Of a DNA stretch of 64,000 nucleotides, positions 2,107 to 17,050 are shown one piece after another. Location of the stretch: the sequence record PZ540767.1; one strand, given 5' to 3'. The translations under genes and the position numbers were made by a program. This DNA comes from a phage. The notes beneath the pieces were generated by a model. It did not search any database. It worked only from the letters and a program-made list of their open reading frames with translations, and was not told the origin of the DNA. Position 1 is the stretch's first letter, and each line of letters begins with the position of its first letter.

Positions 2107-4854
2107 ATGGGACTCTTTAGCGGAAAGAAGAAAACGTACCGAGACTTTAGCTACTCTCGCCTAATTGAAGATGATTACCTGCCTGATGTTATGGGTCAGG
2201 CAGTTACTACGTATGTGCTGGATAAAGATAATACCAAATCACTTACTGATCTGATGCTGGAATATGGGTGGTCAGCTAACAATGTTAAGTGGGATGCTGC
2301 ATATCGCTGGGCCAAAAAAGGTAAGTATTTTTATGGCCTCCCTACTACCACTACTGTTACTGCTACTGACTTCACTGGTTCAGAGTCCTTAGAAGATGTT
2401 CTGCAATCACTCACAGGTCGTACAGATCTTACCTATGTATATAGTAAGTTTGTGCCTGGGAATTTCAGGCATGGTATGTGGCAGCAACTGATCTCAACTC
2501 AAAATTATAATGCCACTACTAATATCCTGGGATCTCTGACTTCATCTTTGGGCACTACGTGCTGGCTTCATAATGCTACTAACTATTTAACCAGTGAAAC
2601 CAGGGAAGCTGTAGAAGACACCATGCTGGAGCATTGGGGCTTGTCACCTAAGAGTGGAGCTACCAATATTCGAAGCCAGGATTTGAATGCTGCTGATACT
2701 CCTGATGGGGTTAGTGCCACTGGTTCCAATTATGTCCGTGTGGAGTATGCGTGTAGCTTTGCTGGGGTAGAACGAATTAAGACCGTGGAAACCACTAAGG
2801 TAACCACTACAATTAAAACCCCAGATCCCAATGAGGAAGGTAGCTACACAGAAGAGACTTCATCTACTTCTTCAGATACCACTACTAACACGACTAACTG
2901 GAATGGGGTAACTCTACCTAATAACGTGATCAGTGCAGTGGATGTAGGTACAGGTACTTCAGAGGTTACTGAAAGTGATCCTGTCGATACGCAAACTACA
3001 ACTGATGAAACTACTGGGGTAATTACAGAAGTCGTTACAGAGGTCACCAGAGTTATCACAACAAACACTGTTTCGATCAATGTTATTGCTTACTTCAATA
3101 TGTCGTTTGGGATCTATGACTACAACCCTGATTCTGAAACCATTGACACTACCACTGTGTTGGATGACCGAGATTCTGGGGATTATGATCCTACTGCTCC
3201 TCTGGTTCCAAGTGGGGAAGATACCGATGATTCCCCAGATTACTTCATGGTGTGTTATGAATATACCTCAGGGGGTACTCTCCATATTGGTTACTTTACC
3301 TATCAATATGGGTCTGGGAATTATCCTGCATTGGATGGGATCACAGGTACTGAGGTTGCCGACTTCGGACAACACTTCCCTCGTATGTATTTCCGTCTGG
3401 ATGGTAAACGCCTCATTTCAGATGAGTACTCACAAACTGAAGGCTATAAGACCAGTAAAAAGTTAGGTAATAAGCTGGACTTAGGTTGGTTAGATGTAGG
3501 AGAAGAAATTTATAATAGCTTGAGTTCTTTGGGCAAAATCAGAGATGTAATGATGATTCTTATGGTTCCTGCCAATACTGAAAATGCTATTGAACAGGAA
3601 TATCTCTATAACTATTTTCATACCCTCTGTATGTTACGTCCCCAGTACACTGAAAAAAACTGGACAATCTACTCAACTGAGTCTTCACAATCTGGTTCAG
3701 CTACAGTACCCCCATCAGATCTGGATACTTTTGATATGCGTTTAGGGGCTTTCATGGAGTCCTCTGACACATTTATTGCAACATCAAACCAGATGGACTG
3801 CCTGGGGTATGCTCGTATCACAGGCTCAATAGGTAACATTGGTGCCGTGGCTTCAGGGAGGGGTACAGGTAAGCTTCCCTTTAGATATGAATACAGACAG
3901 GATAATCAGCTTAAATACCGTTATGGTGTGAAAGATGTAGATTATCATTACTACAGAGTTCAGGTATCCAGCACTCAGTATGATGAAGTCAGGGTGTATA
4001 ACCTAAGCCACCAGGTTCGTGTAGGCGGTAAACAGGTTAACCGGAGTGGTTCCAGTGATGAACTCATGGTGCCTTTGGATCATGCTTTCAGAAAGCTGTT
4101 TAGTACTCATGAAAGAGAAACATTATATGCAAGGGCTGCTCAGATTTTAATCTGCACTGAGTATACAGTTAAGACTAAGTGGTATCAGACTAGCATTTTC
4201 AAGGCAATTACCGTTGTAATAGCTGTAGCTGTTTCTTGGTGGACTGGGGGAGCTTCTTTATCCATGATTAGTGTGTTAACTGCTGTAGCAACAACGGCAG
4301 CAACAATGATAGCTTTCTCACTATTGAGTAAGTATGTGTTCAGTAAACTGGGAAGTTGGGCTTCTATTCTGGCTACTGTAGTTGCTGTGGTCGCTGCTGT
4401 TTATGGGGGATATCTTGCTTATACAGGAACTACAGGCCCATATAGTTTAACTGCCCAAAATCTTATGCAGGCATCCAATGTTGCATTTAAAACTGCTGAT
4501 GCTTCCCTAAAAGGACAGCAAATAGCTATGCAGCAAAAGTTTGGATCTCTTCAGAAAGAGTTAGAAGAAAAGCAGGAAGTACTACAGCAAGCTCAAGATG
4601 AGTTAAACCAGGGTTCTAATACTATTTCTGACTGGATATTCCTACAGGCTACAAATGGCTATGTTAACTTAGGTGAAACACCTGATCAGATGATAACCCG
4701 TACTTTGAATACAAATATTGGAACACTGGCTTTACAGCTACCTGACGTATACCTAAGTCAGGCATTGTCTTTACCTTCACCTGTAGAGATCATGCAGTTT
4801 ATGCAACAAAAACTGTATACTGTTCCAGATGACGAACTCAATCCACTTACATGA
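2107..4854 (+). CDS. Large virion protein, Thr-rich with C-terminal transmembrane helices (putative ejection/internal protein)
   Basis: Track ORF 2077-4854 begins with TTG; first ATG at 2107 follows RBS gaggt; Thr-rich low-complexity region; two or more hydrophobic helices near C-terminus followed by coiled coil. Confidence 0.6.
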   Translation: MGLFSGKKKTYRDFSYSRLIEDDYLPDVMGQAVTTYVLDKDNTKSLTDLMLEYGWSANNVKWDAAYRWAKKGKYFYGLPTTTTVTATDFTGSESLEDVLQSLTGRTDLTYVYSKFVPGNFRHGMWQQLISTQNYNATTNILGSLTSSLGTTCWLHNATNYLTSETREAVEDTMLEHWGLSPKSGATNIRSQDLNAADTPDGVSATGSNYVRVEYACSFAGVERIKTVETTKVTTTIKTPDPNEEGSYTEETSSTSSDTTTNTTNWNGVTLPNNVISAVDVGTGTSEVTESDPVDTQTTTDETTGVITEVVTEVTRVITTNTVSINVIAYFNMSFGIYDYNPDSETIDTTTVLDDRDSGDYDPTAPLVPSGEDTDDSPDYFMVCYEYTSGGTLHIGYFTYQYGSGNYPALDGITGTEVADFGQHFPRMYFRLDGKRLISDEYSQTEGYKTSKKLGNKLDLGWLDVGEEIYNSLSSLGKIRDVMMILMVPANTENAIEQEYLYNYFHTLCMLRPQYTEKNWTIYSTESSQSGSATVPPSDLDTFDMRLGAFMESSDTFIATSNQMDCLGYARITGSIGNIGAVASGRGTGKLPFRYEYRQDNQLKYRYGVKDVDYHYYRVQVSSTQYDEVRVYNLSHQVRVGGKQVNRSGSSDELMVPLDHAFRKLFSTHERETLYARAAQILICTEYTVKTKWYQTSIFKAITVVIAVAVSWWTGGASLSMISVLTAVATTAATMIAFSLLSKYVFSKLGSWASILATVVAVVAAVYGGYLAYTGTTGPYSLTAQNLMQASNVAFKTADASLKGQQIAMQQKFGSLQKELEEKQEVLQQAQDELNQGSNTISDWIFLQATNGYVNLGETPDQMITRTLNTNIGTLALQLPDVYLSQALSLPSPVEIMQFMQQKLYTVPDDELNPLT

Positions 4855-4862: not shown

Positions 4863-5288
4863 ATGGCTGGATTATCGATGTATCCAAGTCTGTGGGATCA
4901 GGGGTCTATGTCCCCATCTCTAGACTCTCTGAGTTCTGGTTTTACCAACTCAGCAAATACTTTTAACAATACGGCCCTTACTGGTTCAGGTGGTTCAGGT
5001 AGTTTCCTGGATAGTATCCTGGGAGGCTCTGGTGAAATGTCTGGTTTGCAGATGGGCCAGCTTGGTCTGGGGGGTGTAACCAGTTTGCTTAATGGTTATC
5101 TTGGTTTCCAGAACCTGGGCCTTGCTAAGAAACAATACCAGTCTCAGCTTGACCAGTTTAATAAGCAGTGGGATGCCAACAAGAAGTTAACCAATGCTTC
5201 TCTGGCAGACCGTCAGGCTGCTCGTGTTGCAAGTAACCCTAATGCATATCAGTCTGTTGATGACTATATGAAAAAATATGGGATCTAA
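4863..5288 (+). CDS. Gly/Ser-rich small virion-module protein (141 aa)
   Basis: ORF, tight spacing in late operon; GSGGSGSF low-complexity stretch. Confidence 0.55.
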   Translation: MAGLSMYPSLWDQGSMSPSLDSLSSGFTNSANTFNNTALTGSGGSGSFLDSILGGSGEMSGLQMGQLGLGGVTSLLNGYLGFQNLGLAKKQYQSQLDQFNKQWDANKKLTNASLADRQAARVASNPNAYQSVDDYMKKYGI

Positions 5289-5291
5289 ACC

Positions 5292-6368
5292 ATGGCTATT
5301 AGACTGCAACAAATTGCTGCACCTAACTTTGCTGGTTCTAACCAATTACTGCTGGCAGCAAACCAGCAGATTGGTAATGCTCTCCAGGGGCTACAAGGCA
5401 CCCTGGGGCAGTATCGTGATGAAGTAGTACGCCGTAATACAGCTCAGGCTGTAGGACTGCTTACTGGGGCTACAGATGCTAATGATCTGGCCCAGCGTCA
5501 ACAGCAAGTAGCACAGTTGGTTCAGCAAGGGGATATTGACCCCACTCGTGTATCTGAAGTGGCAGCAACCATGCCAGATACTTTGTTAGGACGTCAGACT
5601 AATCAGCTAAAGCTGAACCAGATTCAGACTGCACAGCATGATGCACCATTAATGGGTGCTTATATGCAAGCTGTTATGTCTGGGGATCAGAATGCAGCTA
5701 AAGGTATTTTGTCGCAATTCCAGGGGGATGCTTCAGATGCTCTGAAGTTTGCCTCTGATTGGGATATCAAAAACCAGCAGTTGAATCTTCAACGGTCTGA
5801 ACTGGCACAGCGTCAAGCTCAGTTTGCTGCAACTCAGGCAGCAGCTAAGGCAAGAGCCGGGCAGAGTAATGCACTGCTTAAAGCCTTACCTGGTTTGCTT
5901 AACACAGGTAATGATATTCAGGGGAAGGCTGAAGCCAGGGATTTACAGGCTAATGCTCAGGATGCTCAACAACGTGTTGCTATGGATCCTATAAACAACC
6001 CTAAGCTTAATGTTGCTGGGTGGGCTGATGCTAACAGTGATGTTTGGTTTAGGGGCTGGGGAAGACAGGCAGACTCTGACAGAATTTTTAATGCTCTGAA
6101 GGATCAACCAGCTTTTAAAGCACTTAATCCTCAACAGCAGATAAATATCCTAGACGGTGCCCTTGCTAATGAAAACTCCCGCGAAGATAAGGGAAATGTT
6201 TCTACTGTAAATGCTGCTACTAAGTATCTGACTGATGCAACGAAGCGCTTAAATACCCTGAAGATTACTTCACGGCAAGCAGAGGATGCAAAAGATCAGC
6301 AATCTGTTATGCAAGAGCAAAGGGATCGTTTAAATAAGCTGCTTCTGCCCTTACTTTTCCAACAGTAA
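5292..6368 (+). CDS. Gln/Ala-rich coiled-coil protein (358 aa), virion module
   Basis: ORF; stop overlaps start of the giant ORF (ATGA-type coupling geometry). Confidence 0.6.
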   Translation: MAIRLQQIAAPNFAGSNQLLLAANQQIGNALQGLQGTLGQYRDEVVRRNTAQAVGLLTGATDANDLAQRQQQVAQLVQQGDIDPTRVSEVAATMPDTLLGRQTNQLKLNQIQTAQHDAPLMGAYMQAVMSGDQNAAKGILSQFQGDASDALKFASDWDIKNQQLNLQRSELAQRQAQFAATQAAAKARAGQSNALLKALPGLLNTGNDIQGKAEARDLQANAQDAQQRVAMDPINNPKLNVAGWADANSDVWFRGWGRQADSDRIFNALKDQPAFKALNPQQQINILDGALANENSREDKGNVSTVNAATKYLTDATKRLNTLKITSRQAEDAKDQQSVMQEQRDRLNKLLLPLLFQQ

Positions 6369-9300
6369 TGAGGTTACAATCTGGGTACTCCACAATACTA
6401 AGGAATACTCAGATGGCTGGTAACTCATCTCCTCTGGACAAGTTTCTTGTCCCACAACAGGTAACAGGTCAGGAAGCTGCTCAGGCACTTCCTGCACCTA
6501 CCCAACCAACTATCGCCCAGCGTGTGAATGATGCTTCTACTCGTATCCTGAATAACCTCACAGGACAGGGTATGTATCCTACAGAAGAAGGCGAGATTGC
6601 TCGACTCAAACGAATTAATAACGAACAGTCGGCATATGCTAAAGAAGTAGCTGCAAAAGATTCAGATTACGGTTGGTCTTCTACCAACTTCTTAGATCCT
6701 GAAACGTCTTCATTGACTGATCGTACAGCTTCTACCTTTGTTAACTATGGCAAAGCTCTTACTGATGCTGTTAATGGTCTTGCAGGCAAAACAGATAAGA
6801 CTTTCAAAACACTGGGTAATGTGCTGGATCAGGCTTCTATTCCTAACGATGCACTGGATGCTTATCGTCGTGTGCAAGCTGGTAAAGGCACCGAAGCTGA
6901 TAATGCCCTGTTAGATCGTCAGGGTGCCTGGTGGACACAGCCTATTGAAGTAAATCAATATGGTGTACCAGAGATGGGTAACCAGACTCTTCGTCAACGT
7001 CTGGATGCTATCAACGAACGTCAGAAAACCCAAAACCAGAGTAGCTATGACAATCTTGAGAAACTAGCTAACCCTGTTCAAATGCAGCAAGCTGCTGCTG
7101 ATATTGAGAAATCAATTGAAGGTAAATCAGGACTTGATAAATTTGCTGCTGGTTTAGCTGCTATTGCTCGTAACCCTGGTGCTGCTGGTCAGACTATGGT
7201 GGAGTCTGCTCCATACATGGTTGGTGGTATCCCGGGTATGCTTGCTTCCTCTGCTATGCAGGGTGGCTCAGTATTGTCTCAGTATCTGGATACCCAACGT
7301 AAAGCTTCTGATGGTCAGATCCCTACAGCTAAAGATGTAGCTATCGGTACTGGTTTGGGTGTTGTTGATGGTGCTCTGAACTTTGCAGAAAGTATCATTA
7401 ACCGTACTGCTATGCTTCCAGGATCTAAAGTATTACCTGCCGGAGTTGCTGATCGTCTGGTGAACGCAGCACAGCGCATCGCACCACGCAGCTCTACGGC
7501 TGCTGCTGCTCTTGCGCGTGTGACTGCTCCTACCCTTGACCTTGCTAAGAATGCCTTAACTGAAGGTCTGGTATCTGGTGCTCAAAACCAGATTGAGGAG
7601 AACTATGCGAAGGGTAAAAATGAATGGGATACCAAAGGTAATGATGTTGCTTTCTTCCAGGGGATTGCTGCTGCTACTGGTTTTGGTGCTCCTCGTGCTG
7701 CACTTAGTACTGCTGGTGAAGTAGCTAATACTGCTGCTCAGGCTATGCAGAAACGTACTGAAGCACAAGATCCTGTAGGCCAAGCTGCTCGTAATACCAC
7801 CCCAGAAGACTTAATGAATCCACAGTCAGAAGGATATAACCCAGCTGCTGCAATTCGTCGTGCTGGTATGGAGTGGACTCGTAACACTGATGCTACTACT
7901 GATGAACAAAAGGCTGAGATTCAATCTCAGGCTCAGTCAGCTATGGATGCTGCACAGAATGATCACCAGAATAACCTGGATATGATTAACCAGAGGGCTA
8001 CTGCTGAACGTACTCTTGCTGACGCTGGTAAGTTTATTCCTGCTATTCAGGAGAGACTGGATCAACTTAGTAATGATCCTAATGCAGATCCTGATGCTGT
8101 TAATCAGTTACAAACCATTCTGGCTCAACAGACTGAAGCTCGTGATGCTGCACAGCAACAACTGGATGCTATGCCTTCTCAGGAGGAACTGGCACAGTCT
8201 GCTACCCGTTCTGCTGAAGTACTGGATCAGGCTAAGTCTGAGTTTGGTAAGTTCTCGTCAGCTACTGGTATGAATACCAATACAGCTAAACCAGAGAACC
8301 CAACAGCTTCTGACATTATCAGCCACCCAATGTCTTATACCAATGAAGACCTGCAAGAGTTTGTGCGTAATGCTCCTGCTAATGCTACCCCTGCTGAATT
8401 GGGTACGCTTCGTGCATTAGCTGATGCCAAAGTTGCAGAGAATGCTGTTAAGACTGGTTCTAAGGTTAATAGTGAGATCTTCAAATCCACTTCTAATAAC
8501 CTGTCACTGGGTGATTACCAACAGGGTATTAACACTGCTGTACAAGCTGGTGATACTAACCGTATCCAATCCCTGATGACTGGTATCAACAACTTTGAAA
8601 CTTCCCATACTGCTAAAGCAGATATTGCTCAACAGTACCTTAATGAAGCTAAACAGAATGGTAAGTCTTACCAGATCCTGAAAACTTCTAATGGCTGGGA
8701 GTTAAATACTGGCAAACGTCTGGATGCTAAAGCACAGGCTAAGAATGGTGGCTTTACTATCCACAAAGGCTCTACTGGTCTGGTTAACAATATTGTTAAT
8801 GAGGCCAAAGCTATTACAGCCACTCGTCAGTATATGGAAGGCATTGCTACCCCATCTACTAACCAGAATGTGACTGGCTCGACTGAGCAAGTAGCAAGCC
8901 CGGAGGCGCAGCCCGAGGGTGCAGCTACTGTAGCAGGAGAGACAGGAGCACAAGAACAACAAGCACAACCAACAATCAGCCCACTGACCACACGAGATAT
9001 TCGTGCAATGGATCAGGCAACGCTGGAAAAGGTTATGGCTACTACTCAGCAGGCTATGTCTTCTGACACTAATCCTGTACTGGCTCGTAACCTGGATGCA
9101 CTTGACCGTGAGTGGACTCGCCGTGCTGATGTGGCTACTAACCAGAATCGTGGTGTTGATGCTCCTCACCGTAAACTGGATGACTCCTTTAAGCCTAAAG
9201 CTCAGGAGAATGAGATCCAGCGTTCACAGGCTGAGACTACTACTCAAACTGAGCACACCCAGGCTGACATTGACAATGAGTCTACTGGTTCAGAATCTCA

Positions 9301-12300
9301 ACAAACTGCCCCAGTTAACGTAGATGATGTTGTTACCAACACTGATACTTTGACTGAGACTCAACAAGATAATGTAGCTCATGGTGCTCTGAGTATCTTT
9401 GGTAAAGTTGGTGAGTCCCTGAAAGCTCTGCGTGAGAAAGCTTTGGCTGAACCTAAAGGCTTACAGAACCTTGTGCTTACTGGTTTCAACCAGCGAGTTC
9501 GTCCAGGTTTTGGTAGCCCACTGGTAGCAGTGAAAGACTTTATCAATACTCTGAAAACTGCTGTGGATACTGGTAGCTTCACTGAAGTTAACCGTTTCCT
9601 GAAACAGCATATCAGTGAGTCGAAAGCTGAAGGTGCTAAACAGAAAGCTCTGCTGAAACAGTTTGTGGAATTCCATGATCACATCACAGCTAACCTGGAT
9701 AACATCATCCGTACTAAAGCCCCTGAGTATCGTTATCAGGACTTTGCTCAGTTTATCTTGGATGAGAATGGTAACTTTGACTCCAATACTAAAACTGGTA
9801 TTGCAGCAGGTATCTTCTCCTGGCTTGGTGAGAATGGGGATAAGATGTTCCTGAACCAGAGTGAAGTAGCTAAAACTCTGCGTATCAAAGAAGATCAGTT
9901 AACTCCACAAGCCATGTCTCGTATGGCTGATATTGGCTATCGCCAAGACTTGATCATGTCCCAACTTGGTCAACGTATTTATCAGGCTATGGGCTTTGCT
10001 AAACGTGCTGACGTTGATCCTAACCGTGCCAGCAAATTGCAGAATGCTCTGGGTGCTTATGCTCTCCATGCCATGTATTCCAATGGCTATATGGAACAGT
10101 CTTTAATGACTGCTAAAGAGTACTTCGATCTGCAAACCATGGGTCTGGATGAACAATCAGCTAAAGAAGCTGCACAAGCTTTCCAGAATGACTTTGGTGT
10201 TTCCCCTAACGATGCCAAGCACAAGATTGTGTTTAGCCGTCCTGCACGTAACTTTGATGCAGAAGGTAAACCAGTAGCTATTGAAGCTATCTCTGACATT
10301 AAGAATGGAATGAAAGATACCCGTTCTCTCATGTCTAAGCTGTTCGGTTATGATCCTGCTGTACGTGAGGTTCTGACCACTAAGCCTGCTGGTTTCAAAC
10401 AGAAAGTCTTCGGTAAAATGAATCGTGAAGTTCCTTCTGTTTTGGCTGCTCGTATCAGCAAAGCAATGCAATATGACTACACCATTGATCAGGGTGTAGT
10501 GAATGCTATGCGTACTATGTCCACTGTAGATAATGCTGCTCTGCAACATATCTTTGGTGTACGTACTGATGCTGATGTGCCCAATGAAATGGAGATCTTC
10601 AAGAAAGGACGTGAAGCCAAGAATGCTGATATCCAACGTTCTATGGAAATGGGTTTAGACTTTGCTAACCGTAGGGGTACTAACCCATTCTGGATGCCTA
10701 TGGAAGTCTGGACTAACCAACGTATTGGTGATCTGGCTTCAGAGTTCAACCCACAGGGTTCCAAAGTACACCGTGCTATGGGTGGCTTGAGTGCTCACCA
10801 GGTAGAGATTTCTGTAGCCCGTAATGCTCCTGTGCTGGACGCAGATGGTAAGCCTACTCAGTATGGCCTGTTCCTTGTATCCCTGGCTCAGGGTATGGAA
10901 GAAGCTCCTGTAATTGGTGCTGATGGTAAGAAACTGAAGTCTGTTGATAAGCAGACCTATGCTACCTTCTTACCTGCTTTCCAGAATTACCTGCGTAAAC
11001 CAGAGAACATTAAGGCTGTACGTGCTATGCAGAAAGTGATCGCTGGTTCAGCTACTACTGCTGATACCAACGTCATTAAGAATGCTGTGGCTGAGTATGG
11101 TATGAATGGTCAGTCTTTTGCTGCCCTGCATAACCTGGCTCAGTATGCTACTGCTCTGGAATCTGGTAAGTCTTCTGTTAAGCTGCTGGCTCAAATGGAA
11201 TCGGACGGTGTTACTAACGGCCCTATCCTGACTAACATCCTGAATGGCTCTGCTGACTTCGATCTACTGAAGCGTGGTGGTATTTATCGTGAAGGTGACA
11301 ATATTACCAACATGCCTACTTATCGTGAGTTGGGTGGTCAGGATTACTACGAGCTGCTGGGTGATGCTATGCGTCAGCATTGGGCTGATTACAAAACCAA
11401 TGCACCTGCTAGTCAGCAAGGTCAGATTCAGGCTCTGGAATATTTCTCTACTGGTTATGGTGCTCGTTCTAAGGCCAAGACTCTGGCTACCCCATTCAAC
11501 TACTCTGCTGGTATTCCAGCACTGAAAGCTGCTATGGGCCGAGCTACTGTAGAGGATGTTTACTCTAAGATTGGTTCCCTGATCCCACTGGCTAAAAGCA
11601 ATAACAAAGCAGACTTTGCCAAGGCTTATGCTGAGGTGAGTAAAAACCTTTCTGTACTCCTGGGTCAGAAAGTAAATCTGCCACGTACTGCTGATGGTCT
11701 GGTTAAGTTCAGCCTTAACCCGGCTCAAACTAAACGCATCATTGATGTGGATTCTCAGACTCGCGGTGTTGCTACAGAGACTGCTGTTAATGAGGTTGCT
11801 GCTGACTTCATTGCATCTCGTGATGCTAATACCAGTCTGGTTAACACAACCTTTACCCTGGCTAACCTTCGCTACAATGCTGCTAAAGCTGCACTGCTGA
11901 AGAAGCGTATTGCTGAGGGTAAAATCCCTGTGGATGCTAAAGGTGCTCCATTGGAAGGACTCACTCAGGCAGATCTGGATAAGCTATCCCGCATGATTCC
12001 TAACATGCCTTCTGCAACTGGTGTTCTGTCTGAGAATACCAAAGCTTCTGGTTACCCAATGGCTAAGGTGGAGAAAGCTTTTACTGCTAAGTCTCCTGCC
12101 ACCAGCATTGATATCTACTTCAAAGAAGCTGCTAACCCTAAACCAGCAATGGATGCTAATGGGATGCTGCTGAGTCAAGGTCTGGTAGGTGGATACAAAT
12201 CTACCCAGTCTACTGTGACTGAGACTAAGCTGACTAACCCTGGTGTTGCTATGGGTGCTAACGTTACTCAGGGTACTGATGCTGCAATCAGCTCTGATGT

Positions 12301-15300
12301 AATCAGCAAGATCGAAAGCCAGAACGTGCATGATGCTAACATCCTGTCTCCTGACAATGTGCTGAAAGGTGCTCGTATCCAGAACAAAGCTATGTTTGAT
12401 GCTGTGGTTTCTTATCATCCTCAACATCTGGCTGCTTCTGCACTGCTGACTGAAGTTCGTAGTCTGGCTGGTGCTAACCTGTCTACCAACGACAAGGTTG
12501 CAGCGAAGAAAGCTCTGGAAGCCATGAAGACTAAGATCCTGGGTAAAGACTTCAAGGGCAACATGAAAGCTGCTCTGAACACTATCCTTAACCAGGCATA
12601 TGATCGTGACATTAAGAAACTGGAGACTCTCTCTGAAGTCTATGCTGTTAACCAGTATGGTACTGAGGGGGGTGAATACCTGATCACTGATACTGATCGT
12701 AAGAAAATTGGTGATGAGATTGCACGTCTGAAACGTAGTCGTGCTGCTGGCTTACAACGTATCTCTGCTATGTTCTCTAAGGGTAATGCCCCAAAGGCTG
12801 AGGCCAACCAGTATCCTGATAAGATGAGACAATACCTGTATGAGGCTTCGGCCTCTACAGGCTCTGTGTCAGCTTCTGAGGTGATGGCTCGTACCAAAGG
12901 TAAGTTTGCTAACCCAGTATATAACGAACTCCACAATCTCATTTCTGGTTTGATTCCAGCTGATGCTGTGGTGAACGTACTGGATGGGCAGACTATGCCT
13001 AAGAATGTTAAGGGGCAGTCACTGCCCCAGAACCGTGATGCCATTGCATGGTCTTATCAAGATAAAAACACTGCACAGGTTAACCTGTCACTCAGCAAAG
13101 AGGCTTCACCTGAAGTCTTGCTGCATGAACTGACTCACATTGCTCTGGGACGTGCAATTGCTACTGCTGATTCAAATCCAAAAGTAAAAGCTGTACTGGC
13201 CCGTACAGAGAAGCTAATGGGTAGAGTGACCAAGCTGGTTTCAGCTGATCCTCAATTGACTCAGAAGTTTGCCCCTGCTTTGGCTAACGTGGATGAATTT
13301 ATCTCCTGGGGTATGACTAACCCAGAATTCCAACGTTACCTTGATACCATCACTGGTGTGCCTGAAATCTCAGGTCGTAACCGTGGATGGTTGGGTACTG
13401 CCTTTAAACAGTTTGTGGATCAAATGTCAGGCATCTTTGCTGCTGTAACTGGTCGAGCTATTAATGCTCGGGTTACTACTGCTCTGGAAGCTCTGACCTT
13501 CGATACTGCACATCTGGTTCAGGCTATTAATCCTACTGCTATTGAGAGTCCTGTATCTTCTATCAGCCACCCTATGAGCAACACTAACAGTGCTGCTGAT
13601 CAGGTAGCTAAGTTTAGCCATGTGGATATCTTTGATAACCTGGCTTCAACAGGTGGCAAGACTAACTCAGCACAGTTCACAGGTAACCTCCGTAATGTAA
13701 TATCCACTGTGGCGGATCAGCTTTACGGTGCTTTAGGCTCCAGAGTCACCCAGAATGCCAATGAGAATTATACTCCTGGTCAAGTCTGGAATGAGGCTGT
13801 AGCCACTGGGAAAGCCCCTGTCAGCACCGAAGCACTGAGCAATGGGTTTGTACTGACTAATCAGGAAGCCTTTGCTGTGGAGGCCATTGAGGCTGCTGTA
13901 TCTGAATCTCTGGCTTCTGGTTTCACTTCACCAGTTAACCGGGAGATTCGTCGTACTTGGCAAGCTGCTAAACAATCCCTGAAACCAGAAGACTTCCATA
14001 ATGGAAACTGGAATCAGGCAACTCAAGCAGAAAAACGAGCTGCTCAACAGAAATGGAATTATCTGTTTGATGTAACGAATGACTCTGGTGAGTCCCAGCA
14101 TCTGTCTCGTTTCGTTGCTATGGCTATTGGGCATGAAGACACCAGTAACTTACTTGGCTTCCAGATGGAAGATGGTAAGGACTCTGGTAATACTGCCTTT
14201 GAACAGGCTACTGCTTACTTTAACCAGGCTGTTAATACAGTCTCTGGCATGTTGACCAATACCCATCAAGGACAAGCTGCAAATGCTCGTGCTCAAGCAC
14301 TAGCTGAAAAGCTGATCCAGATTGAACTTAAGAACCGTGATACCACCATGAATATTCTTACTGGTGGGATCGACAAAGTAGAGAATGCCTTAGATACGGC
14401 TGCTGCTAAGTCTAAACAGTTCCTGGGTAAAATCGTTAAAGCTACTGGTATTGATCAGTCCTCCAACAATGCTCTGAATGCTATGGGCAAAGTTGCAGGA
14501 TTGGCTGCTCGTGATCAGCTGGGTAGCCTGAAAGAAACTATTAAAGAGTTCCGGGACTTTAATGCCCCTAGTACTCCAGAAGGTTCTCTGGCTTCCATTC
14601 TGACTGAAGCAACGAATGCTGATGATGTTCGTGCTCTGCATGAATCTCTGTTACGTTCTACTAAACGTATTGAACAGGATCGTGCAACCTTAGCTGCTGT
14701 TACTGCTAAGAACTTAAATGAGATGTTTGATAACAATGGTCAAGACCTGACTAAAGAAGATCGTACAGCAATGACTTACTCACTGCTTCGTACTGATCTT
14801 CAGTCTGTGTTGCACATTGAAGGTATGAACCTGAATAACTTACATAAACTGGTTTCTAATACTGGTTATCGTAAGCAGCAGATCAATAACCTTGAGAAAA
14901 CCATTAGCCAGTATGCTAACGGTAATGATAAGATCATTCGTGCCAAGGCTCTGGGATTCTGGATGGCTACTGGCAGAAATACCCTGGGACGTGATTTAGT
15001 TCTGAATGCAAAAGCTATTGCTACCGGAGCTGCTACTCACTATTCCACAGTAGGTATCGAACCGACTCTTGATGAAGTGAACGCCATTGATGCTCTGGCT
15101 TCAATGTACGCTCTAAGCTACACCAAGACCGAAAACCGTGTTCGCACTGCTGCTGTAATGGAACGTGAGCTTGCACGAGGTAAAGACAATGGCATTAAAA
15201 TGCTGATGGCTACTTATGCGAACCTGATTGAGGATTCTGCTAATACGCTGTTTGCTGGTAACCAGTTGTCTCGCATTAAAGGCTATTTGCCTGAAGATAC

Positions 15301-17050
15301 CAATCCTCATCATGACTTACGTGCGGTTGAGTCGGGGAGTGCAGATGAAGCAGCACTGGTGAACATGGGATACCAAAAAGTATCCCCACTGTCCCAGGAC
15401 TCTTTGTCAAAACACTCTGGACGTGTACTGTATGTGACCAAAGAGAATGGGTATCAACGAACCGTCTCTGGTACTTTCAGTTTAACTGGAAGCCAGCGTA
15501 AAGGTTCTTCCCTAAGTGGGGATCGTGCTGTTGCTGATCGTGTTCGAGCTGACGAGTTAGAACAGTTAAGGCAAGCGTCCTATGCAGACGTGCGAGGGCG
15601 TGAAGCACTGTCCCACACTGCCTTTGATCCTACTCAGATCCAGGATAACCATGTAGTGCCTGTATTAAGCACTGATGGTCATATCATGGACTTCCGTTAC
15701 ATGGCTACCCACAATACTCGTGACACGTTCCTTGATCGTAATAATGACTTTGCTGACCTTGTTGGTCGTCTGGCTGGTCAGAATATCGATAAGGGTGATG
15801 CCCCAAGCCAGAATGCTAAGATCCTGGAAGCTCTGCATGAAGACTCTAAGGCTAATATCCTGAAGAATCCTAATGCTTACTTTGAGATTGGGCCTAATGC
15901 ACCTACTGAGCGAGGACGTGAGATCTGGGCAATGATGCCTTATGAAGCACGTACTAAAGCTACTTCTCTGTGGGGTGCTGATCGTATGTATATTCGAAAC
16001 GATCTGGTTAACCTTACTTTTGGCTTCCGTAAGTATTCACTGGCTAACATTTTTGATGTTGATCCAGAACAGCGTAATATTGCTCAGGGTGTTGCTGCTG
16101 GTTTACTTGAAGCTGCTTTTGGTGATAAGGCTAAAGCTTATGTAATTAAGGGTGAGCGTGGCATTCAGGAATTTATGCAGTCCTATAAGGACGTGATCGT
16201 TATTCGTAACCTGAAAACCCAGTTCAGTAATATTATGTCTAATACTGCTCTACTGGCTGCTTATGGCGTTAACCCGGTACGTATGGTTAAAGATATCCGT
16301 ACTGCTCTGGTTGCTGGGATTGACTACCGTAAACAGTACTCGCTGCTACTCAAGTATCAGCAACAGCAACGTGCTGGTATTGGTAACTTTGCTCAGATGG
16401 AGTCCCTGATCAATGAGACGCAGGATCGCTTGAATGCTAACCCTCTGGCTAAGTTTATTCAGGCAGGTATGATGCCTACCATCGTAGAAGACGTTCAGCC
16501 TGATGCTGATGGTTACACTTATGGTTCTAAGATCCGTAAGAAATTTAATGAGGTATCTGCCCATCTGCCAGCTTCTGCTGTAACAGCTGCTCGCTGGGCT
16601 GTGATTGATAAAGGTACTGCACCTCATAAATTCTTAAGTGATGCTGCTCAGTTCAGTGACTTTGCTGCTAAGTATGCTCTGTATAAGCACCTGACAGAAC
16701 ATGCCCGAGATCGCCTGAGTCATACTGAGGCTTTACAACGTGCATCTGATGCTTTTGTTAACTATGACATTCCAGCTACAGCTACTCGCCAATATCTGGA
16801 TGATATGGGGATTACCATGTTTACGAAGTATCGTGTTCGTATCCAACGTGCAATGTTCTACTTGATGGATAAACGTCCAGCATCTGTTATGGCACATATG
16901 GCAATTACAGGGCAGTTTACTCATGCACCTGATGCTATGGAGCCACTGTTTGCACGTAACTTAGGTAACCCATTCACACCTTCAGTATTGCAGGGTGGGA
17001 GTTTGTTGAATGTCCCAATGCCTTGGAACTTATTCAGAATGGCATACTAA
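6368..17050 (+). CDS. Giant virion-associated RNA polymerase (vRNAP-like, 3560 aa)
   Basis: Single uninterrupted 10.7-kb ORF; size class matches N4 vRNAP (~3500 aa); sits at the end of the structural operon; followed by a strong terminator. Confidence 0.8.
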   Translation: MRLQSGYSTILRNTQMAGNSSPLDKFLVPQQVTGQEAAQALPAPTQPTIAQRVNDASTRILNNLTGQGMYPTEEGEIARLKRINNEQSAYAKEVAAKDSDYGWSSTNFLDPETSSLTDRTASTFVNYGKALTDAVNGLAGKTDKTFKTLGNVLDQASIPNDALDAYRRVQAGKGTEADNALLDRQGAWWTQPIEVNQYGVPEMGNQTLRQRLDAINERQKTQNQSSYDNLEKLANPVQMQQAAADIEKSIEGKSGLDKFAAGLAAIARNPGAAGQTMVESAPYMVGGIPGMLASSAMQGGSVLSQYLDTQRKASDGQIPTAKDVAIGTGLGVVDGALNFAESIINRTAMLPGSKVLPAGVADRLVNAAQRIAPRSSTAAAALARVTAPTLDLAKNALTEGLVSGAQNQIEENYAKGKNEWDTKGNDVAFFQGIAAATGFGAPRAALSTAGEVANTAAQAMQKRTEAQDPVGQAARNTTPEDLMNPQSEGYNPAAAIRRAGMEWTRNTDATTDEQKAEIQSQAQSAMDAAQNDHQNNLDMINQRATAERTLADAGKFIPAIQERLDQLSNDPNADPDAVNQLQTILAQQTEARDAAQQQLDAMPSQEELAQSATRSAEVLDQAKSEFGKFSSATGMNTNTAKPENPTASDIISHPMSYTNEDLQEFVRNAPANATPAELGTLRALADAKVAENAVKTGSKVNSEIFKSTSNNLSLGDYQQGINTAVQAGDTNRIQSLMTGINNFETSHTAKADIAQQYLNEAKQNGKSYQILKTSNGWELNTGKRLDAKAQAKNGGFTIHKGSTGLVNNIVNEAKAITATRQYMEGIATPSTNQNVTGSTEQVASPEAQPEGAATVAGETGAQEQQAQPTISPLTTRDIRAMDQATLEKVMATTQQAMSSDTNPVLARNLDALDREWTRRADVATNQNRGVDAPHRKLDDSFKPKAQENEIQRSQAETTTQTEHTQADIDNESTGSESQQTAPVNVDDVVTNTDTLTETQQDNVAHGALSIFGKVGESLKALREKALAEPKGLQNLVLTGFNQRVRPGFGSPLVAVKDFINTLKTAVDTGSFTEVNRFLKQHISESKAEGAKQKALLKQFVEFHDHITANLDNIIRTKAPEYRYQDFAQFILDENGNFDSNTKTGIAAGIFSWLGENGDKMFLNQSEVAKTLRIKEDQLTPQAMSRMADIGYRQDLIMSQLGQRIYQAMGFAKRADVDPNRASKLQNALGAYALHAMYSNGYMEQSLMTAKEYFDLQTMGLDEQSAKEAAQAFQNDFGVSPNDAKHKIVFSRPARNFDAEGKPVAIEAISDIKNGMKDTRSLMSKLFGYDPAVREVLTTKPAGFKQKVFGKMNREVPSVLAARISKAMQYDYTIDQGVVNAMRTMSTVDNAALQHIFGVRTDADVPNEMEIFKKGREAKNADIQRSMEMGLDFANRRGTNPFWMPMEVWTNQRIGDLASEFNPQGSKVHRAMGGLSAHQVEISVARNAPVLDADGKPTQYGLFLVSLAQGMEEAPVIGADGKKLKSVDKQTYATFLPAFQNYLRKPENIKAVRAMQKVIAGSATTADTNVIKNAVAEYGMNGQSFAALHNLAQYATALESGKSSVKLLAQMESDGVTNGPILTNILNGSADFDLLKRGGIYREGDNITNMPTYRELGGQDYYELLGDAMRQHWADYKTNAPASQQGQIQALEYFSTGYGARSKAKTLATPFNYSAGIPALKAAMGRATVEDVYSKIGSLIPLAKSNNKADFAKAYAEVSKNLSVLLGQKVNLPRTADGLVKFSLNPAQTKRIIDVDSQTRGVATETAVNEVAADFIASRDANTSLVNTTFTLANLRYNAAKAALLKKRIAEGKIPVDAKGAPLEGLTQADLDKLSRMIPNMPSATGVLSENTKASGYPMAKVEKAFTAKSPATSIDIYFKEAANPKPAMDANGMLLSQGLVGGYKSTQSTVTETKLTNPGVAMGANVTQGTDAAISSDVISKIESQNVHDANILSPDNVLKGARIQNKAMFDAVVSYHPQHLAASALLTEVRSLAGANLSTNDKVAAKKALEAMKTKILGKDFKGNMKAALNTILNQAYDRDIKKLETLSEVYAVNQYGTEGGEYLITDTDRKKIGDEIARLKRSRAAGLQRISAMFSKGNAPKAEANQYPDKMRQYLYEASASTGSVSASEVMARTKGKFANPVYNELHNLISGLIPADAVVNVLDGQTMPKNVKGQSLPQNRDAIAWSYQDKNTAQVNLSLSKEASPEVLLHELTHIALGRAIATADSNPKVKAVLARTEKLMGRVTKLVSADPQLTQKFAPALANVDEFISWGMTNPEFQRYLDTITGVPEISGRNRGWLGTAFKQFVDQMSGIFAAVTGRAINARVTTALEALTFDTAHLVQAINPTAIESPVSSISHPMSNTNSAADQVAKFSHVDIFDNLASTGGKTNSAQFTGNLRNVISTVADQLYGALGSRVTQNANENYTPGQVWNEAVATGKAPVSTEALSNGFVLTNQEAFAVEAIEAAVSESLASGFTSPVNREIRRTWQAAKQSLKPEDFHNGNWNQATQAEKRAAQQKWNYLFDVTNDSGESQHLSRFVAMAIGHEDTSNLLGFQMEDGKDSGNTAFEQATAYFNQAVNTVSGMLTNTHQGQAANARAQALAEKLIQIELKNRDTTMNILTGGIDKVENALDTAAAKSKQFLGKIVKATGIDQSSNNALNAMGKVAGLAARDQLGSLKETIKEFRDFNAPSTPEGSLASILTEATNADDVRALHESLLRSTKRIEQDRATLAAVTAKNLNEMFDNNGQDLTKEDRTAMTYSLLRTDLQSVLHIEGMNLNNLHKLVSNTGYRKQQINNLEKTISQYANGNDKIIRAKALGFWMATGRNTLGRDLVLNAKAIATGAATHYSTVGIEPTLDEVNAIDALASMYALSYTKTENRVRTAAVMERELARGKDNGIKMLMATYANLIEDSANTLFAGNQLSRIKGYLPEDTNPHHDLRAVESGSADEAALVNMGYQKVSPLSQDSLSKHSGRVLYVTKENGYQRTVSGTFSLTGSQRKGSSLSGDRAVADRVRADELEQLRQASYADVRGREALSHTAFDPTQIQDNHVVPVLSTDGHIMDFRYMATHNTRDTFLDRNNDFADLVGRLAGQNIDKGDAPSQNAKILEALHEDSKANILKNPNAYFEIGPNAPTERGREIWAMMPYEARTKATSLWGADRMYIRNDLVNLTFGFRKYSLANIFDVDPEQRNIAQGVAAGLLEAAFGDKAKAYVIKGERGIQEFMQSYKDVIVIRNLKTQFSNIMSNTALLAAYGVNPVRMVKDIRTALVAGIDYRKQYSLLLKYQQQQRAGIGNFAQMESLINETQDRLNANPLAKFIQAGMMPTIVEDVQPDADGYTYGSKIRKKFNEVSAHLPASAVTAARWAVIDKGTAPHKFLSDAAQFSDFAAKYALYKHLTEHARDRLSHTEALQRASDAFVNYDIPATATRQYLDDMGITMFTKYRVRIQRAMFYLMDKRPASVMAHMAITGQFTHAPDAMEPLFARNLGNPFTPSVLQGGSLLNVPMPWNLFRMAY

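What the first reader, a model, noticed from the sequence alone, without database searches (positions are those of the whole stretch)
6368..17050. Single 3560-aa ORF: giant virion RNA polymerase defining the phage type
A 10.7-kb uninterrupted ORF at the end of the structural operon is the hallmark of N4-like phages, which inject a giant RNAP to transcribe early genes. Together with the split RNAP II and the hairpin promoter candidates, the window contains a complete three-polymerase-stage transcription programme. Upstream proteins (821-6368), including the repeat-rich and the Thr-rich/TM proteins, are candidates for co-ejected components.
Basis: partly seen in the sequence, partly recalled or inferred. 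Interest (0 to 1): 0.4.

Follow-up and report, generated by a model that had tools for sequence, protein, structure and literature searches.

The report
N4-type giant virion RNA polymerase gene
The 10.7-kb gene is an ordinary, already annotated example of the giant RNA polymerase that N4-like (Schitoviridae) phages pack into the virion and inject to start infection; it is 97% identical in protein sequence to the one in known Klebsiella phages.

Summary
The ORF 6368-17050 (+, 3560 codons) exists exactly as described. The real start is probably ATG 6413, giving 3545 aa. The gene is 91-95% nucleotide-identical over its full length to 13 Klebsiella N4-like phages (genus Efbeekayvirus). Its protein is 97.2% identical to the RefSeq "virion RNA polymerase" of phage FBKp27.

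A profile of the central domain, built without N4, hits the N4 mini-vRNAP crystal structure 2PO4 at E = 2.9e-39. The catalytic residues map one-to-one: R1452, D1613, R1700/K1704/Y1712, D1989. All except the motif B Tyr (Tyr or Phe) and R1700 (149 of 150) are invariant in 150 family representatives.

The context agrees:
- Gene order matches N4 gp55-54-53-52-51-50.
- Both RNAP II subunits and an N4SSB homologue are in the window.
- Three conserved hairpins in the early region look like vRNAP promoters.

One correction concerns the four upstream proteins. Only the two nearest (4863-5288, 5292-6368) correspond to the ejection proteins gp52 and gp51. [quoted passage not shown]

Verdict: correct interpretation, already known, low interest.

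The parts
6368..17050 (+).
6413..17050 (+). Probable true CDS of the virion RNA polymerase (vRNAP, N4 gp50 orthologue), 3545 aa. Residue numbers used elsewhere in this report count from ATG 6368.
   Evidence: AAGGA SD before ATG 6413. Same start annotated in FBKp27. N-termini of relatives align with Met16. 97.2% aa identity to FBKp27 vRNAP.
6413..8845 (+). N-terminal domain (aa 16 to about 826). It includes a Gly/Ala-rich, weakly hydrophobic stretch (aa 260-441) colinear with N4 gp50 262-435, the region that holds N4's predicted membrane-spanning helices.
   Evidence: BLASTP/phmmer colinear match. N4 domain description in PMC13434306. Boundary is approximate.
8846..9379 (+). Low-complexity Thr/Gln/Glu/Ala-rich linker region (aa 827-1004), equivalent in position to the N4 NTD-RNAP linker 907-1006
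   Evidence: N4 linker described. Boundary is approximate.
9380..12847 (+). Central single-subunit RNA polymerase domain (aa 1005 to about 2160), equivalent to N4 mini-vRNAP (998-2103)
   Evidence: Alignment A1. Profile A2 vs PDB 2PO4/3C2P/9PNR, E=2.9e-39. 251 Schitoviridae records by tblastn. 544 clusters by phmmer.
10709..10723 (+). T/DxxGR-equivalent motif, WTNQR (aa 1448-1452). R1452 = N4 R1421 (mini R424) = T7 R425.
   Evidence: Arg invariant in 150/150 representatives.
11198..11221 (+). Motif A, ESDGVTNG (aa 1611-1618). Catalytic D1613 = N4 D1556 (mini D559) = T7 D537.
   Evidence: Asp 150/150.
11465..11506 (+). Motif B, RSKAKTLATPFNYS (aa 1700-1713). R1700/K1704/Y1712 = N4 R666/K670/Y678 (mini numbering) = T7 R627/K631/Y639.
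   Evidence: Lys 150/150, Arg 149/150, Tyr 70 / Phe 80.
12326..12340 (+). Motif C, VHDAN (aa 1987-1991). Catalytic D1989 = N4 D1948 (mini D951).
   Evidence: His-Asp 150/150.
12875..13627 (+). C-terminal subdomain C1 (about aa 2170-2420), with the HExxH motif HELTH at aa 2253-2257 (nt 13124-13138), colinear with N4 HELVH
   Evidence: The N4 C1 HExxH is described in PMC13434306. HExxH is present 150-450 aa after motif C in 125/146 representatives. Boundaries are approximate.
13628..17047 (+). C-terminal subdomain C2 (about aa 2421-3560), the part best conserved with N4 (query 2487-3505 = N4 2439-3443). In N4 the CTD is needed for encapsidation and autoinhibits the polymerase.
   Evidence: phmmer vs PDB full-length N4 vRNAP, E 1e-33 to 1e-36. 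BLASTP 25% identity over 751 aa, E=1e-38. Function taken from PMC13434306 and PMC13492108.
17055..17075 (.). Bidirectional intrinsic terminator (AAGCCCCTC-AAT-GAGGGGCTT with an A-run before and a T-run after). It ends the ejection operon and the convergent - strand genes.
   Evidence: Terminators are annotated on both strands at the same place in FBKp27.
5292..6368 (+). 358-aa all-alpha, Cys-free protein in the position of N4 gp51 / DEV gp72 (ejection protein). The assignment rests on position plus weak N-terminal similarity.
   Evidence: BLASTP of the N-terminal 41 aa vs N4 gp51, E=2e-4. It falls in different PHROGs from N4 gp51. 0 Cys. AF2 model is all-helical, pLDDT 66.5. Relatives are annotated 'virion structural protein'.
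4863..5288 (+). 141-aa homologue of N4 gp52 / DEV gp73 (ejection protein)
   Evidence: It shares all four PHROG families with N4 gp52 (2646, 22703, 16623, 18869). Colinear weak BLASTP match, E=0.029. 0 Cys.
2107..4854 (+). Homologue of N4 gp53 (tail plug), 915 aa from ATG 2107. This is the 'Thr-rich/TM' protein.
   Evidence: PHROG 2220 is shared with N4 gp53. BLASTP E=3e-10, and MGLFSGKKK aligns with residue 1 of gp53. The listed TTG start at 2077 lies inside the terminator 2069-2087.
821..2050 (+). Homologue of N4 gp54 (tail tube), 409 aa. This is the 'repeat-rich' protein, enlarged by extra helical repeat blocks.
   Evidence: PHROG 2050 is shared with N4 gp54. BLASTP E=1e-15. Two insertions relative to the 272-aa FBKp27 protein.
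56942..57949 (-). RNAP II small subunit (N4 gp15 homologue), the N-terminal half of a split T7-like RNAP
   Evidence: PHROG 2166 E=3e-110, and PHROG 414 positions 227-424. tblastn with N4 gp15, E=4e-26.
55650..56924 (-). RNAP II large subunit (N4 gp16 homologue), the C-terminal half of the split T7-like RNAP
   Evidence: PHROG 2051 E=1.5e-137, and PHROG 414 positions 426-595. Pfam PF00940 E=2.8e-18. tblastn with N4 gp16, E=2e-51.
18870..19610 (-). N4SSB (gp45) homologue. In N4 this protein is the activator of host RNAP at late promoters.
   Evidence: tblastn with N4 gp45, E=5e-22. Annotated SSB in FBKp27.
63204..63220 (-). Candidate vRNAP hairpin promoter a: 7-bp stem, template-strand (+) loop 5'-TGT-3'. 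Predicted +1 is near 63201. It lies upstream of the first early ORF, 62931-63152.
60350..60368 (-). Candidate vRNAP hairpin promoter b: 8-bp stem, loop TGT on the template strand. Predicted +1 is near 60348, about 70 nt before the SD-led ORF 59940-60278.
   Evidence: Exactly conserved in 7 related ~76-kb IMG/VR contigs.
58993..59011 (-). Candidate vRNAP hairpin promoter c: 8-bp stem, loop TGT on the template strand. Predicted +1 is near 58991, about 60 nt before an SD-led ATG at 58931. It heads the gene block that ends with RNAP II.
   Evidence: Exactly conserved in 7 related contigs.

Best explanation
The ORF encodes the virion-encapsidated RNA polymerase (vRNAP) of an N4-like phage: family Schitoviridae, genus Efbeekayvirus or a very close relative, Klebsiella host. 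It is the orthologue of N4 gp50.

Shown here:
- It is one polypeptide of about 3545 aa with the three-part N4 layout: an N-terminal domain, a low-complexity linker, a central T7-like single-subunit RNAP domain, and a large alpha-helical C-terminal domain that starts with an HExxH subdomain.
- The central domain keeps every catalytic residue: the T/DxxGR Arg, the motif A and C aspartates, and the motif B Arg/Lys/Tyr.
- It has no cysteines.
- It is the last gene of the cassette gp53-gp52-gp51-gp50, which is bracketed by terminators.

Inferred from work on N4 and DEV (PMC13434306, PMC13492108, PMC11445570):
- A few copies are packaged into the capsid through the C-terminal domain, which also keeps the polymerase autoinhibited.
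- On infection the protein is threaded through the tail, domain by domain, behind the two small ejection proteins, which build a channel across the cell envelope. The N-terminal domain associates with the membrane.
- The polymerase domain then binds DNA hairpins that negative supercoiling extrudes on the template strand, and transcribes the early genes without host RNAP.

The likely promoters in this window are three conserved hairpins at 63.2, 60.36 and 59.0 kb, each with a central G in a 3-nt loop. The early products include the split RNAP II (55650-57949), which transcribes the middle genes. An N4SSB homologue (18870-19610) would then switch host RNAP to the late genes, including this one.
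For: - ORF and coordinates.
- 91-95% nt identity over 100% of the gene to 13 Klebsiella N4-like phages, several annotated 'virion RNA polymerase'. Taxonomy and synteny in FBKp27. 97.2% aa identity end to end.
- PHROG 2206 'virion RNA polymerase', E=0, 1750 bits, residues 60-3555.
- phmmer against PDB hits only N4 vRNAP chains (E down to 2.7e-36), with colinear N-terminal, motif A, HExxH and C-terminal segments.
- A profile of 8 non-N4 sequences hits the mini-vRNAP crystal structures 2PO4/3Q0A/3C2P at E about 3e-39 over profile positions 334-999.
- Residue-by-residue mapping of N4 R424, D559, R666, K670, Y678, D951 to R1452, D1613, R1700, K1704, Y1712, D1989.
- These positions in 150 representatives: Arg 150/150, Asp 150/150, Arg 149/150, Lys 150/150, Tyr or Phe, Asp 150/150.
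- hhalign to T7 RNAP puts R1452/D1613/R1700/K1704/Y1712 on T7 R425/D537/R627/K631/Y639.
- 544 clusters at 50% identity carry this domain, almost all in proteins of 3300-5900 aa with the domain in the middle.
- 0 Cys against 37.8 expected, as in N4 gp50-52 and in 9 other genera. This is a published family trait.
- Synteny with N4 gp55-gp50, by shared PHROGs for gp55, gp54, gp53 and gp52 and by BLASTP for gp54 to gp51.
- RNAP II and SSB homologues.
- Three hairpins sharing ATTNNCCACAGGNNAATNAAT, all on the early-gene strand within 4.3 kb. Their stems differ by compensatory changes and they fold stably as ssDNA. Two are exactly conserved in 7 related contigs while their flanks diverge. The same scan recovers N4 P1, P2 and P3.
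Against: - Pfam has no model that matches the protein; the best is a chance-level TmoB hit.
- Direct similarity to N4 in the polymerase domain is very low (16% identity in A1) and needed a profile to become significant.
- The direct link to T7 RNAP is statistically weak (hhalign probability 8%, E=0.004), even though it is in register.
- In this lineage the T/DxxGR motif is degenerate (WTNQR): only the Arg is kept.
- No structure model of the polymerase domain was made.
- Encapsidation, ejection and hairpin-promoter use are inferred from N4 and DEV, not shown for this phage.
- N4 gp1 and gp2 (RNAP II cofactors) have no BLAST-detectable homologue in the window.
Confidence: 0.97

Rival explanations
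1. The protein is mainly a structural part of the DNA ejectosome: the inner-membrane or cytoplasmic component analogous to T7 gp16. On this reading the polymerase domain serves chiefly as the motor that pulls the genome in, rather than as a dedicated early-gene transcriptase. This complements the main explanation rather than excluding it.
For: - It is the third gene of the conserved ejection cassette, behind the gp52- and gp51-like genes.
- It is Cys-free, like the two small ejection proteins.
- The DEV and N4 papers treat vRNAP as the third ejection protein and as a 'genome ejection motor'.
- The N-terminal region is colinear with the N4 segment predicted to span membranes.
Against: - The catalytic residues are invariant across the family.
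- Conserved hairpins sit in front of early genes, which argues that promoter-specific transcription is retained.
- In N4 the two roles are coupled, not alternatives.
Confidence: 0.5
2. The giant ORF is a polymerase-dead internal virion protein, that is, a decayed vRNAP kept only for ejection.
For: There is no Pfam RNA_pol hit. The T/DxxGR motif is degenerate, WTNQR.
Against: - All catalytic Asp, Arg and Lys residues and the motif B Tyr are present and align with N4 and T7.
- N4 vRNAP, which is active, is not recognised by Pfam-style sequence similarity outside the motifs either.
- The degenerate T/DxxGR motif is shared by most family members, with the Arg kept in 150/150.
Confidence: 0.01
3. 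The long ORF is an artefact: an assembly or frameshift error that fused separate genes.
For: None found.
Against: - Thirteen independent phage genomes carry the same uninterrupted gene.
- It is colinear from end to end with N4 gp50 and with PHROG 2206.
- The chance of such an ORF arising at random is about 1e-87.
Confidence: 0.003

Closest known systems
Virion RNA polymerase of Klebsiella phage vB_KpP_FBKp27 (YP_010563440.1; Schitoviridae, Efbeekayvirus) and its relatives HS106, P184, Tribble_ER49, GADU21
   Same: - Same gene: 95% nt and 97.2% aa identity with one 1-aa indel.
- Same neighbours on both sides.
- Same terminator after the gene.
- Same start codon, if ATG 6413 is used.
   Different: - Scattered substitutions, densest in aa 16-164 (88.7% identity) and aa 3015-3314 (93-94% identity).
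- The neighbouring tail-tube gene is much more divergent: 409 vs 272 aa.
Escherichia phage N4 gp50 (vRNAP; PDB 2PO4, 3C2P, 9PNR, 9PNQ, 11GP)
   Same: - Similar length (3500 vs 3545 aa).
- Same three-domain order: low-complexity linker before the polymerase domain, HExxH at the start of the C-terminal domain, large alpha-helical C2 subdomain (25% identity over 751 aa).
- Same catalytic residues.
- No cysteines.
- Same operon position after gp52 and gp51.
- Three hairpin promoters with 3-nt loops near the early end of the genome.
   Different: - Only about 16% identity in the polymerase domain.
- T/DxxGR reads WTNQR instead of TRVGR.
- The -11-base contacts differ: N4 R119 aligns with Pro and N4 W129 with Phe1129 (alignment uncertain here).
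- The candidate promoters have 7-8 bp stems and template loop TGT with +1 A. N4 has 5-7 bp stems, loops GAA/GGA and +1 G.
- The gp51-like partner is 358 aa rather than 644 aa.
Pseudomonas phage DEV gp71 (vRNAP) with gp72/gp73 ejection proteins (PDB 8VXQ)
   Same: Same family and the same three-gene ejection cassette, with cysteine suppression. LIT1-type polymerases, taken here to be DEV's group, align over 92% of the central domain at about 26% identity.
   Different: Different genus and host. The motif B aromatic residue is Phe in the LIT1/KPP21 group but Tyr here.
T7 RNA polymerase (single-subunit RNAP family, Pfam PF00940)
   Same: Catalytic motifs T/DxxGR, A and B align in register, including an identical FNPQG after the conserved Arg.
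   Different: - There is no significant overall sequence similarity (hhalign probability 8%) and no Pfam hit.
- The polymerase is embedded in a protein four times larger.
- Going by N4, it works on hairpin-form single-stranded promoters rather than duplex promoters.

Membership tests
Schitoviridae virion RNA polymerase (N4 gp50 family, PHROG 2206) | Single giant polypeptide of roughly 3300-3800 aa | tested here: met
   3560-codon ORF, probable CDS 3545 aa
Schitoviridae virion RNA polymerase (N4 gp50 family, PHROG 2206) | Full-length sequence homology to known vRNAPs | tested here: met
   PHROG 2206 E=0 over aa 60-3555. 97.2% aa identity to the RefSeq vRNAP of FBKp27. Colinear matches to N4 gp50 in the N-terminal, polymerase and C-terminal parts.
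Schitoviridae virion RNA polymerase (N4 gp50 family, PHROG 2206) | Central mini-vRNAP-type polymerase domain with the T/DxxGR Arg and motifs A, B and C | tested here: met
   Profile vs 2PO4, E=2.9e-39. R1452, D1613, R1700, K1704, Y1712 and D1989 map to N4 R424, D559, R666, K670, Y678 and D951. Across 150 representatives R1452, D1613, K1704 and D1989 are invariant, R1700 is Arg in 149, and Y1712 is Tyr or Phe.
Schitoviridae virion RNA polymerase (N4 gp50 family, PHROG 2206) | C-terminal domain homologous to the N4 CTD, with HExxH in subdomain C1 | tested here: met
   aa 2487-3505 = N4 2439-3443, E about 1e-33. HELTH 2253 aligns with N4 HELVH.
Schitoviridae virion RNA polymerase (N4 gp50 family, PHROG 2206) | Position as last gene of the ejection cassette gp52-gp51-gp50, downstream of tail tube and plug genes | tested here: met
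   Shared PHROGs with N4 gp55, gp54, gp53 and gp52, in the same order. The gp51 position is filled by a weakly similar protein.
Schitoviridae virion RNA polymerase (N4 gp50 family, PHROG 2206) | Suppression of cysteine residues | tested here: met
   0 Cys in 3545 aa against 37.8 expected from the other genes in the window, P about 3e-17. Family trait published in PMC11445570.
Schitoviridae virion RNA polymerase (N4 gp50 family, PHROG 2206) | Packaged in the virion and ejected into the host | not testable with these tools
   Needs virion proteomics and infection experiments. Inferred from N4 and DEV.
Schitoviridae virion RNA polymerase (N4 gp50 family, PHROG 2206) | Transcribes early genes from hairpin-form promoters on single-stranded template | tested here: inconclusive
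   Three conserved hairpins with 3-nt loops (central G on the template strand) lie ahead of early genes. The same scan finds N4 P1-P3. No transcription data.
T7-like single-subunit RNA polymerases (Pfam PF00940 RNA_pol) | Significant match to the Pfam RNA_pol model | tested here: not met
   No Pfam hit for the vRNAP. By contrast the RNAP II large subunit in the same window hits PF00940 at E=2.8e-18.
T7-like single-subunit RNA polymerases (Pfam PF00940 RNA_pol) | Catalytic motifs T/DxxGR, A, B (and C) in T7 order and register | tested here: met
   hhalign aligns R1452/D1613/R1700/K1704/Y1712 with T7 R425/D537/R627/K631/Y639, although probability is only 8%. Motif C was identified through N4 D951.
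T7-like single-subunit RNA polymerases (Pfam PF00940 RNA_pol) | Right-hand fold (palm, fingers, thumb) shown by structure | not tested
   No model of the central domain was made. The fold is inferred from the E=2.9e-39 profile match to N4 crystal structures.
N4 gp51 / DEV gp72 ejection protein (for ORF 5292-6368) | Sequence or fold homology to gp51/gp72 | tested here: inconclusive
   Only the N-terminal 41 aa resemble gp51 (E=2e-4). It falls in different PHROGs. The AF2 model is all-alpha but low confidence (pLDDT 66.5), and Foldseek vs PDB gives nothing below E=1. Position, size class and absence of Cys fit.

The most novel reading that the evidence does not exclude
This lineage's vRNAP may recognise a promoter class different from N4's: 7-8 bp stems closed by CC/GG, template-strand loop 5'-TGT-3', a conserved AAT at -1/+1/+2, and so initiation with ATP rather than GTP. 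The -11-base pocket would be changed to match, with N4 W129 replaced by Phe1129 and N4 R119 not conserved in the alignment. If so, the phage offers a natural polymerase-promoter specificity variant of the hairpin-dependent system. Such a variant could be useful for orthogonal transcription from ssDNA templates.
Probability: 0.5. Interest if true: 0.3.

Novelty: already known. Interest (0 to 1): 0.1.

Why it matters
It fixes the identity of the window. This is a Schitoviridae (N4-like) Klebsiella phage, and its transcription programme and ejection machinery can be read off from N4 and DEV.

Nothing about the gene itself is new. Orthologues at 97% protein identity are already annotated in RefSeq, and the family's structure and mechanism were published in 2024-2026.

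The only modest added value is the set of three conserved hairpin promoter candidates with a loop and start site unlike N4's. These could be tested directly.

Tried and rejected
1. The search for homologous proteins with the 1196-aa central domain returned no hit. This is a limit of the word index for a long query, since an exhaustive phmmer found 544 clusters. It also meant no permitted alignment was available for an AlphaFold model of the polymerase domain, so that model was not attempted.
2. Pfam on the whole protein gave only a chance-level TmoB hit.
3. An AlphaFold2 model of the gp51-like protein, built with 25 homologues, reached only pLDDT 66.5 and pTM 0.41. Foldseek against PDB gave no match below E=1, so fold-level homology to N4 gp51, DEV gp72 or T7 gp15 could not be shown.
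4. tblastn with the gp51-like protein reaches only Efbeekayvirus, Cbunavirus and neighbouring genera, not N4.
5. hhalign of the family alignment against T7 RNAP is in register but weak: probability 8%.
6. Leaderless early mRNAs were considered, because the predicted +1 of hairpins b and c falls on an ATG. This was rejected: SD-preceded start codons lie 60-70 nt downstream.
7. The complete absence of cysteine looked striking, but it is already published for the Schitoviridae ejection operon.
8. Rfam and tRNA scans of the whole window found nothing.
9. N4 gp1 and gp2 have no detectable homologue in the window by tblastn.
Full report
**Observation.** The window has a single ORF at 6368..17050 on the + strand: ATG start, 3560 aa, the longest ORF in the window (translation). 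Stop trinucleotides make up 5.5% of the sequence, so the chance of a stop-free run of this length is about 1e-87.

The first ATG overlaps the stop of the upstream gene (TAATG) and has no ribosome-binding site. The second ATG, at 6413, has AAGGA 8-12 nt upstream. It is the start annotated in the closest RefSeq relative. It also aligns with residue 1 of a 70%-identical homologue and of more distant ones, all starting 'MA...'. The coding sequence is therefore most likely 6413..17050, 3545 aa. Residue numbers below count from ATG 6368.

Four bases after the stop lies a 9-bp GC-rich hairpin flanked by an A-run and a T-run, a bidirectional terminator. Another strong terminator lies at 2069-2087. The transcription unit is thus gp53-like, gp52-like, gp51-like, giant gene.

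**What it is.** Megablast finds 13 Klebsiella phages with 91-95% identity over the whole gene, several annotated 'virion RNA polymerase'. The RefSeq relative vB_KpP_FBKp27 is classified in Schitoviridae, genus Efbeekayvirus. Its vRNAP is 97.2% identical in protein sequence with a single 1-aa indel. PHROG 2206 'virion RNA polymerase' matches residues 60-3555 at E=0.

Pfam has no matching model. That fits the published view that N4 vRNAP shares little with T7-like enzymes outside the catalytic motifs.

- Direct comparison with N4 gp50 is strong only in the C-terminal domain: aa 2487-3505 against N4 2439-3443, E about 1e-33 to 1e-38. It shows short colinear islands at the N-terminal Gly/Ala-rich region, at motif A (SDGVTNGP vs ADGVTNGP) and at an HExxH segment.
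- I therefore collected central domains from nine other Schitoviridae genera by tblastn. That search found 251 records, all N4-like, with the nearest outside the genus at 38-40% identity (loci). I aligned them with N4 (A1).
- A profile built without N4 or its subfamily (A2) hits the mini-vRNAP crystal structures 2PO4, 3Q0A and 3C2P at E about 3e-39 across profile positions 334-999, and the new full-length cryo-EM chains at about 1e-33.
- N4's catalytic residues map one-to-one: R424 to R1452, D559 to D1613, R666/K670/Y678 to R1700/K1704/Y1712, and D951 to D1989.
- An exhaustive phmmer search of 1.84 billion representative proteins found 544 clusters with this domain, nearly all in proteins of 3300-5900 aa with the domain in the middle third.
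- In an alignment of the window with 149 of those representatives, the Arg, both Asp and the Lys are invariant and R1700 is Arg in 149 of 150. The motif B aromatic residue is Tyr in 70 and Phe in 80.
- A profile-to-sequence comparison with T7 RNAP is statistically weak (probability 8%, E=0.004). It nevertheless places R1452, D1613, R1700, K1704 and Y1712 on T7 R425, D537, R627, K631 and Y639, with an identical FNPQG after the Arg.

**Domain map (approximate boundaries).**
- N-terminal domain: aa 16 to about 826.
- Low-complexity linker: aa 827-1004. It matches the position of N4's 907-1006 linker.
- Polymerase domain: aa 1005 to about 2160.
- C1 subdomain: about aa 2170-2420, with HELTH at 2253. 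The N4 equivalent, HELVH, is the published 'conserved HExxH'. The motif occurs 150-450 aa after motif C in 125 of 146 representatives.
- C2 subdomain: runs to the end of the protein.

**Surroundings.** The five upstream genes match N4 gp55, gp54, gp53, gp52 and gp51 in order. PHROG families are shared with the N4 proteins for the first four.

| Window ORF | N4 counterpart | BLASTP E-value |
|---|---|---|
| 821-2050 | gp54 | 1e-15 |
| 2107-4854 | gp53 | 3e-10 |
| 4863-5288 | gp52 | 0.029 |
| 5292-6368 | gp51 (N-terminal 41 aa only) | 2e-4 |

According to the 2026 N4 structures, gp54 is the tail tube, gp53 the tail plug, and gp51 and gp52 the two small ejection proteins that leave with vRNAP. 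That paper's abstract and its figure legend disagree on which of the two forms the outer-membrane part.

It does not hold for the repeat-rich protein (tail tube) or the Thr-rich/TM protein (tail plug).

The gp51-like assignment is the weakest. The protein is 358 aa against 644 in N4 and falls in a different PHROG. Its AlphaFold2 model is all-helical but of low confidence, and Foldseek found nothing.

vRNAP and the gp51-, gp52- and gp54-like proteins contain no cysteine, against 1.07% in the other genes of the window. The same holds for N4 gp50-52 and for vRNAP fragments from nine other genera. This trait is already published and attributed to passage through the oxidising periplasm.

**Transcription programme.**
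- RNAP II: both subunits are present on the - strand. ORF 56942-57949 matches N4 gp15 (E=4e-26) and PHROG 2166. ORF 55650-56924 matches N4 gp16 (E=2e-51), PHROG 2051 and Pfam RNA_pol. The two align to adjoining halves of a T7-like profile.
- N4SSB: a homologue is at 18870-19610 (E=5e-22).
- N4 gp1 and gp2 are not detectable.
- Hairpins: a scan for perfect hairpins with 3-nt loops found three that share the 21-nt pattern ATTNNCCACAGGNNAATNAAT on the - strand, at 63200-63220, 60347-60367 and 58990-59010. There are no further matches in the window, even with three mismatches allowed.
- All three lie in the AT-richer early region, on the strand of the early genes, 50-70 nt before SD-led start codons. 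Their stems differ by paired changes. As single-stranded DNA they fold at -4.6 to -8.2 kcal/mol.
- On the template (+) strand the loop is 5'-TGT-3', that is, a central G. In N4 the -11G is the key contact.
- An exact-pattern scan of 2.9 million viral contigs found 79 loci. Fourteen of the matches fall two-by-two in seven contigs of 75-77 kb. There the hairpins are identical while the flanks vary.
- The same hairpin scan on N4 recovers its known P1, P2 and P3, with +1 eleven bases from the loop centre.

These are good promoter candidates, but no transcript data support them.

**Mechanism.** Shown here: gene structure, homology, intact catalytic residues, operon context and candidate promoters.

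Inferred from N4 and DEV:
- A few copies are packaged by way of the C-terminal domain, which also locks the active site.
- Ejection through the tail and the gp51/gp52 channel proceeds as loosely linked subdomains.
- The N-terminal domain associates with the membrane.
- The polymerase recognises hairpins extruded by supercoiling and transcribes the early genes.
- RNAP II then transcribes the middle genes, and SSB-activated host RNAP the late genes.

**Novelty.** None for the gene. It is an orthologue of annotated proteins in a well-populated, structurally characterised family. Interest is low (0.1). The most novel reading left open is that the promoter-polymerase pair has a specificity different from N4's (loop TGT, +1 A, Phe in place of W129).

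Noticed in passing
window 821-2050: The tail-tube (N4 gp54) homologue is 409 aa, against 272 aa in FBKp27 and 299 aa in N4. It carries two extra blocks of a helical 'QYNL..LP.Q'-type repeat. Only phage pKP-BM327-1.2 shares the long form (93% nt). Other relatives are about 77% nt identical here, although the vRNAP gene a few kb downstream is about 95% identical. This looks like a local mosaic hot spot, possibly changing tail-tube length.
   Followed up: partly
window 2077-2107: The mechanical ORF start of the gp53-like gene (TTG 2077) lies inside the terminator hairpin 2069-2087. ATG 2107 (MGLFSGKKK) aligns with residue 1 of N4 gp53, so the gene is 2107-4854 (915 aa).
   Followed up: yes
window 58993-59011, 60350-60368, 63204-63220: Three hairpins (7-8 bp stem, 3-nt loop, shared flanks) lie in the early region. 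They are candidate vRNAP promoters with template loop TGT and predicted +1 A. Two are exactly conserved in seven related ~76-kb metagenomic viral contigs.
   Followed up: yes
window 63400-63880: A stretch of about 480 nt with no credible ORF, containing CATACACAATACACA-type short repeats. It lies between a terminator-ended gene (ends near 63880, - strand) and the first hairpin promoter candidate. It could be the physical genome end or the terminal-repeat region.
   Followed up: no
window 11501-11503 (Y1712) and family alignment: The motif B tyrosine (N4 Y678, T7 Y639; from my own knowledge, the residue that discriminates rNTP from dNTP in T7 RNAP) is Tyr here. It is Phe in 80 of 150 vRNAP family representatives, including the Pseudomonas LIT1/KPP21 group.
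   Followed up: partly
window 821-17050: vRNAP and the gp51-, gp52- and gp54-like proteins together have 0 Cys in 4453 residues, against 1.07% in the other genes. The gp53-like plug has 6. For the vRNAP and the gp51- and gp52-type ejection proteins this is already published as a Schitoviridae ejection-operon trait (PMC11445570); in N4 itself the tail-tube protein gp54 has 3 Cys.
   Followed up: yes
window 17087-17260 (- strand): A 57-aa ORF convergent with the vRNAP gene, just beyond the shared terminator. Read by eye (no hydropathy calculation), its sequence looks strongly hydrophobic, like a small membrane protein. It has no PHROG match.
   Followed up: no
GenBank PQ898399.1 (hit H111): The record 'Enterobacter phage SonariX' (248,734 bp) carries a gp51-like match at its extreme end, with the same statistics as the 76-kb N4-like phage SABI. 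The record may be two genomes joined together.
   Followed up: no
GenBank OY979417.1 (hits H10, H92): In Klebsiella phage vB_Kpn_K17alpha62, the features annotated under the vRNAP and gp51-like matches have unrelated names (tail spike, methyltransferase, thymidylate synthase). The annotation coordinates seem to be shifted relative to the sequence.
   Followed up: no
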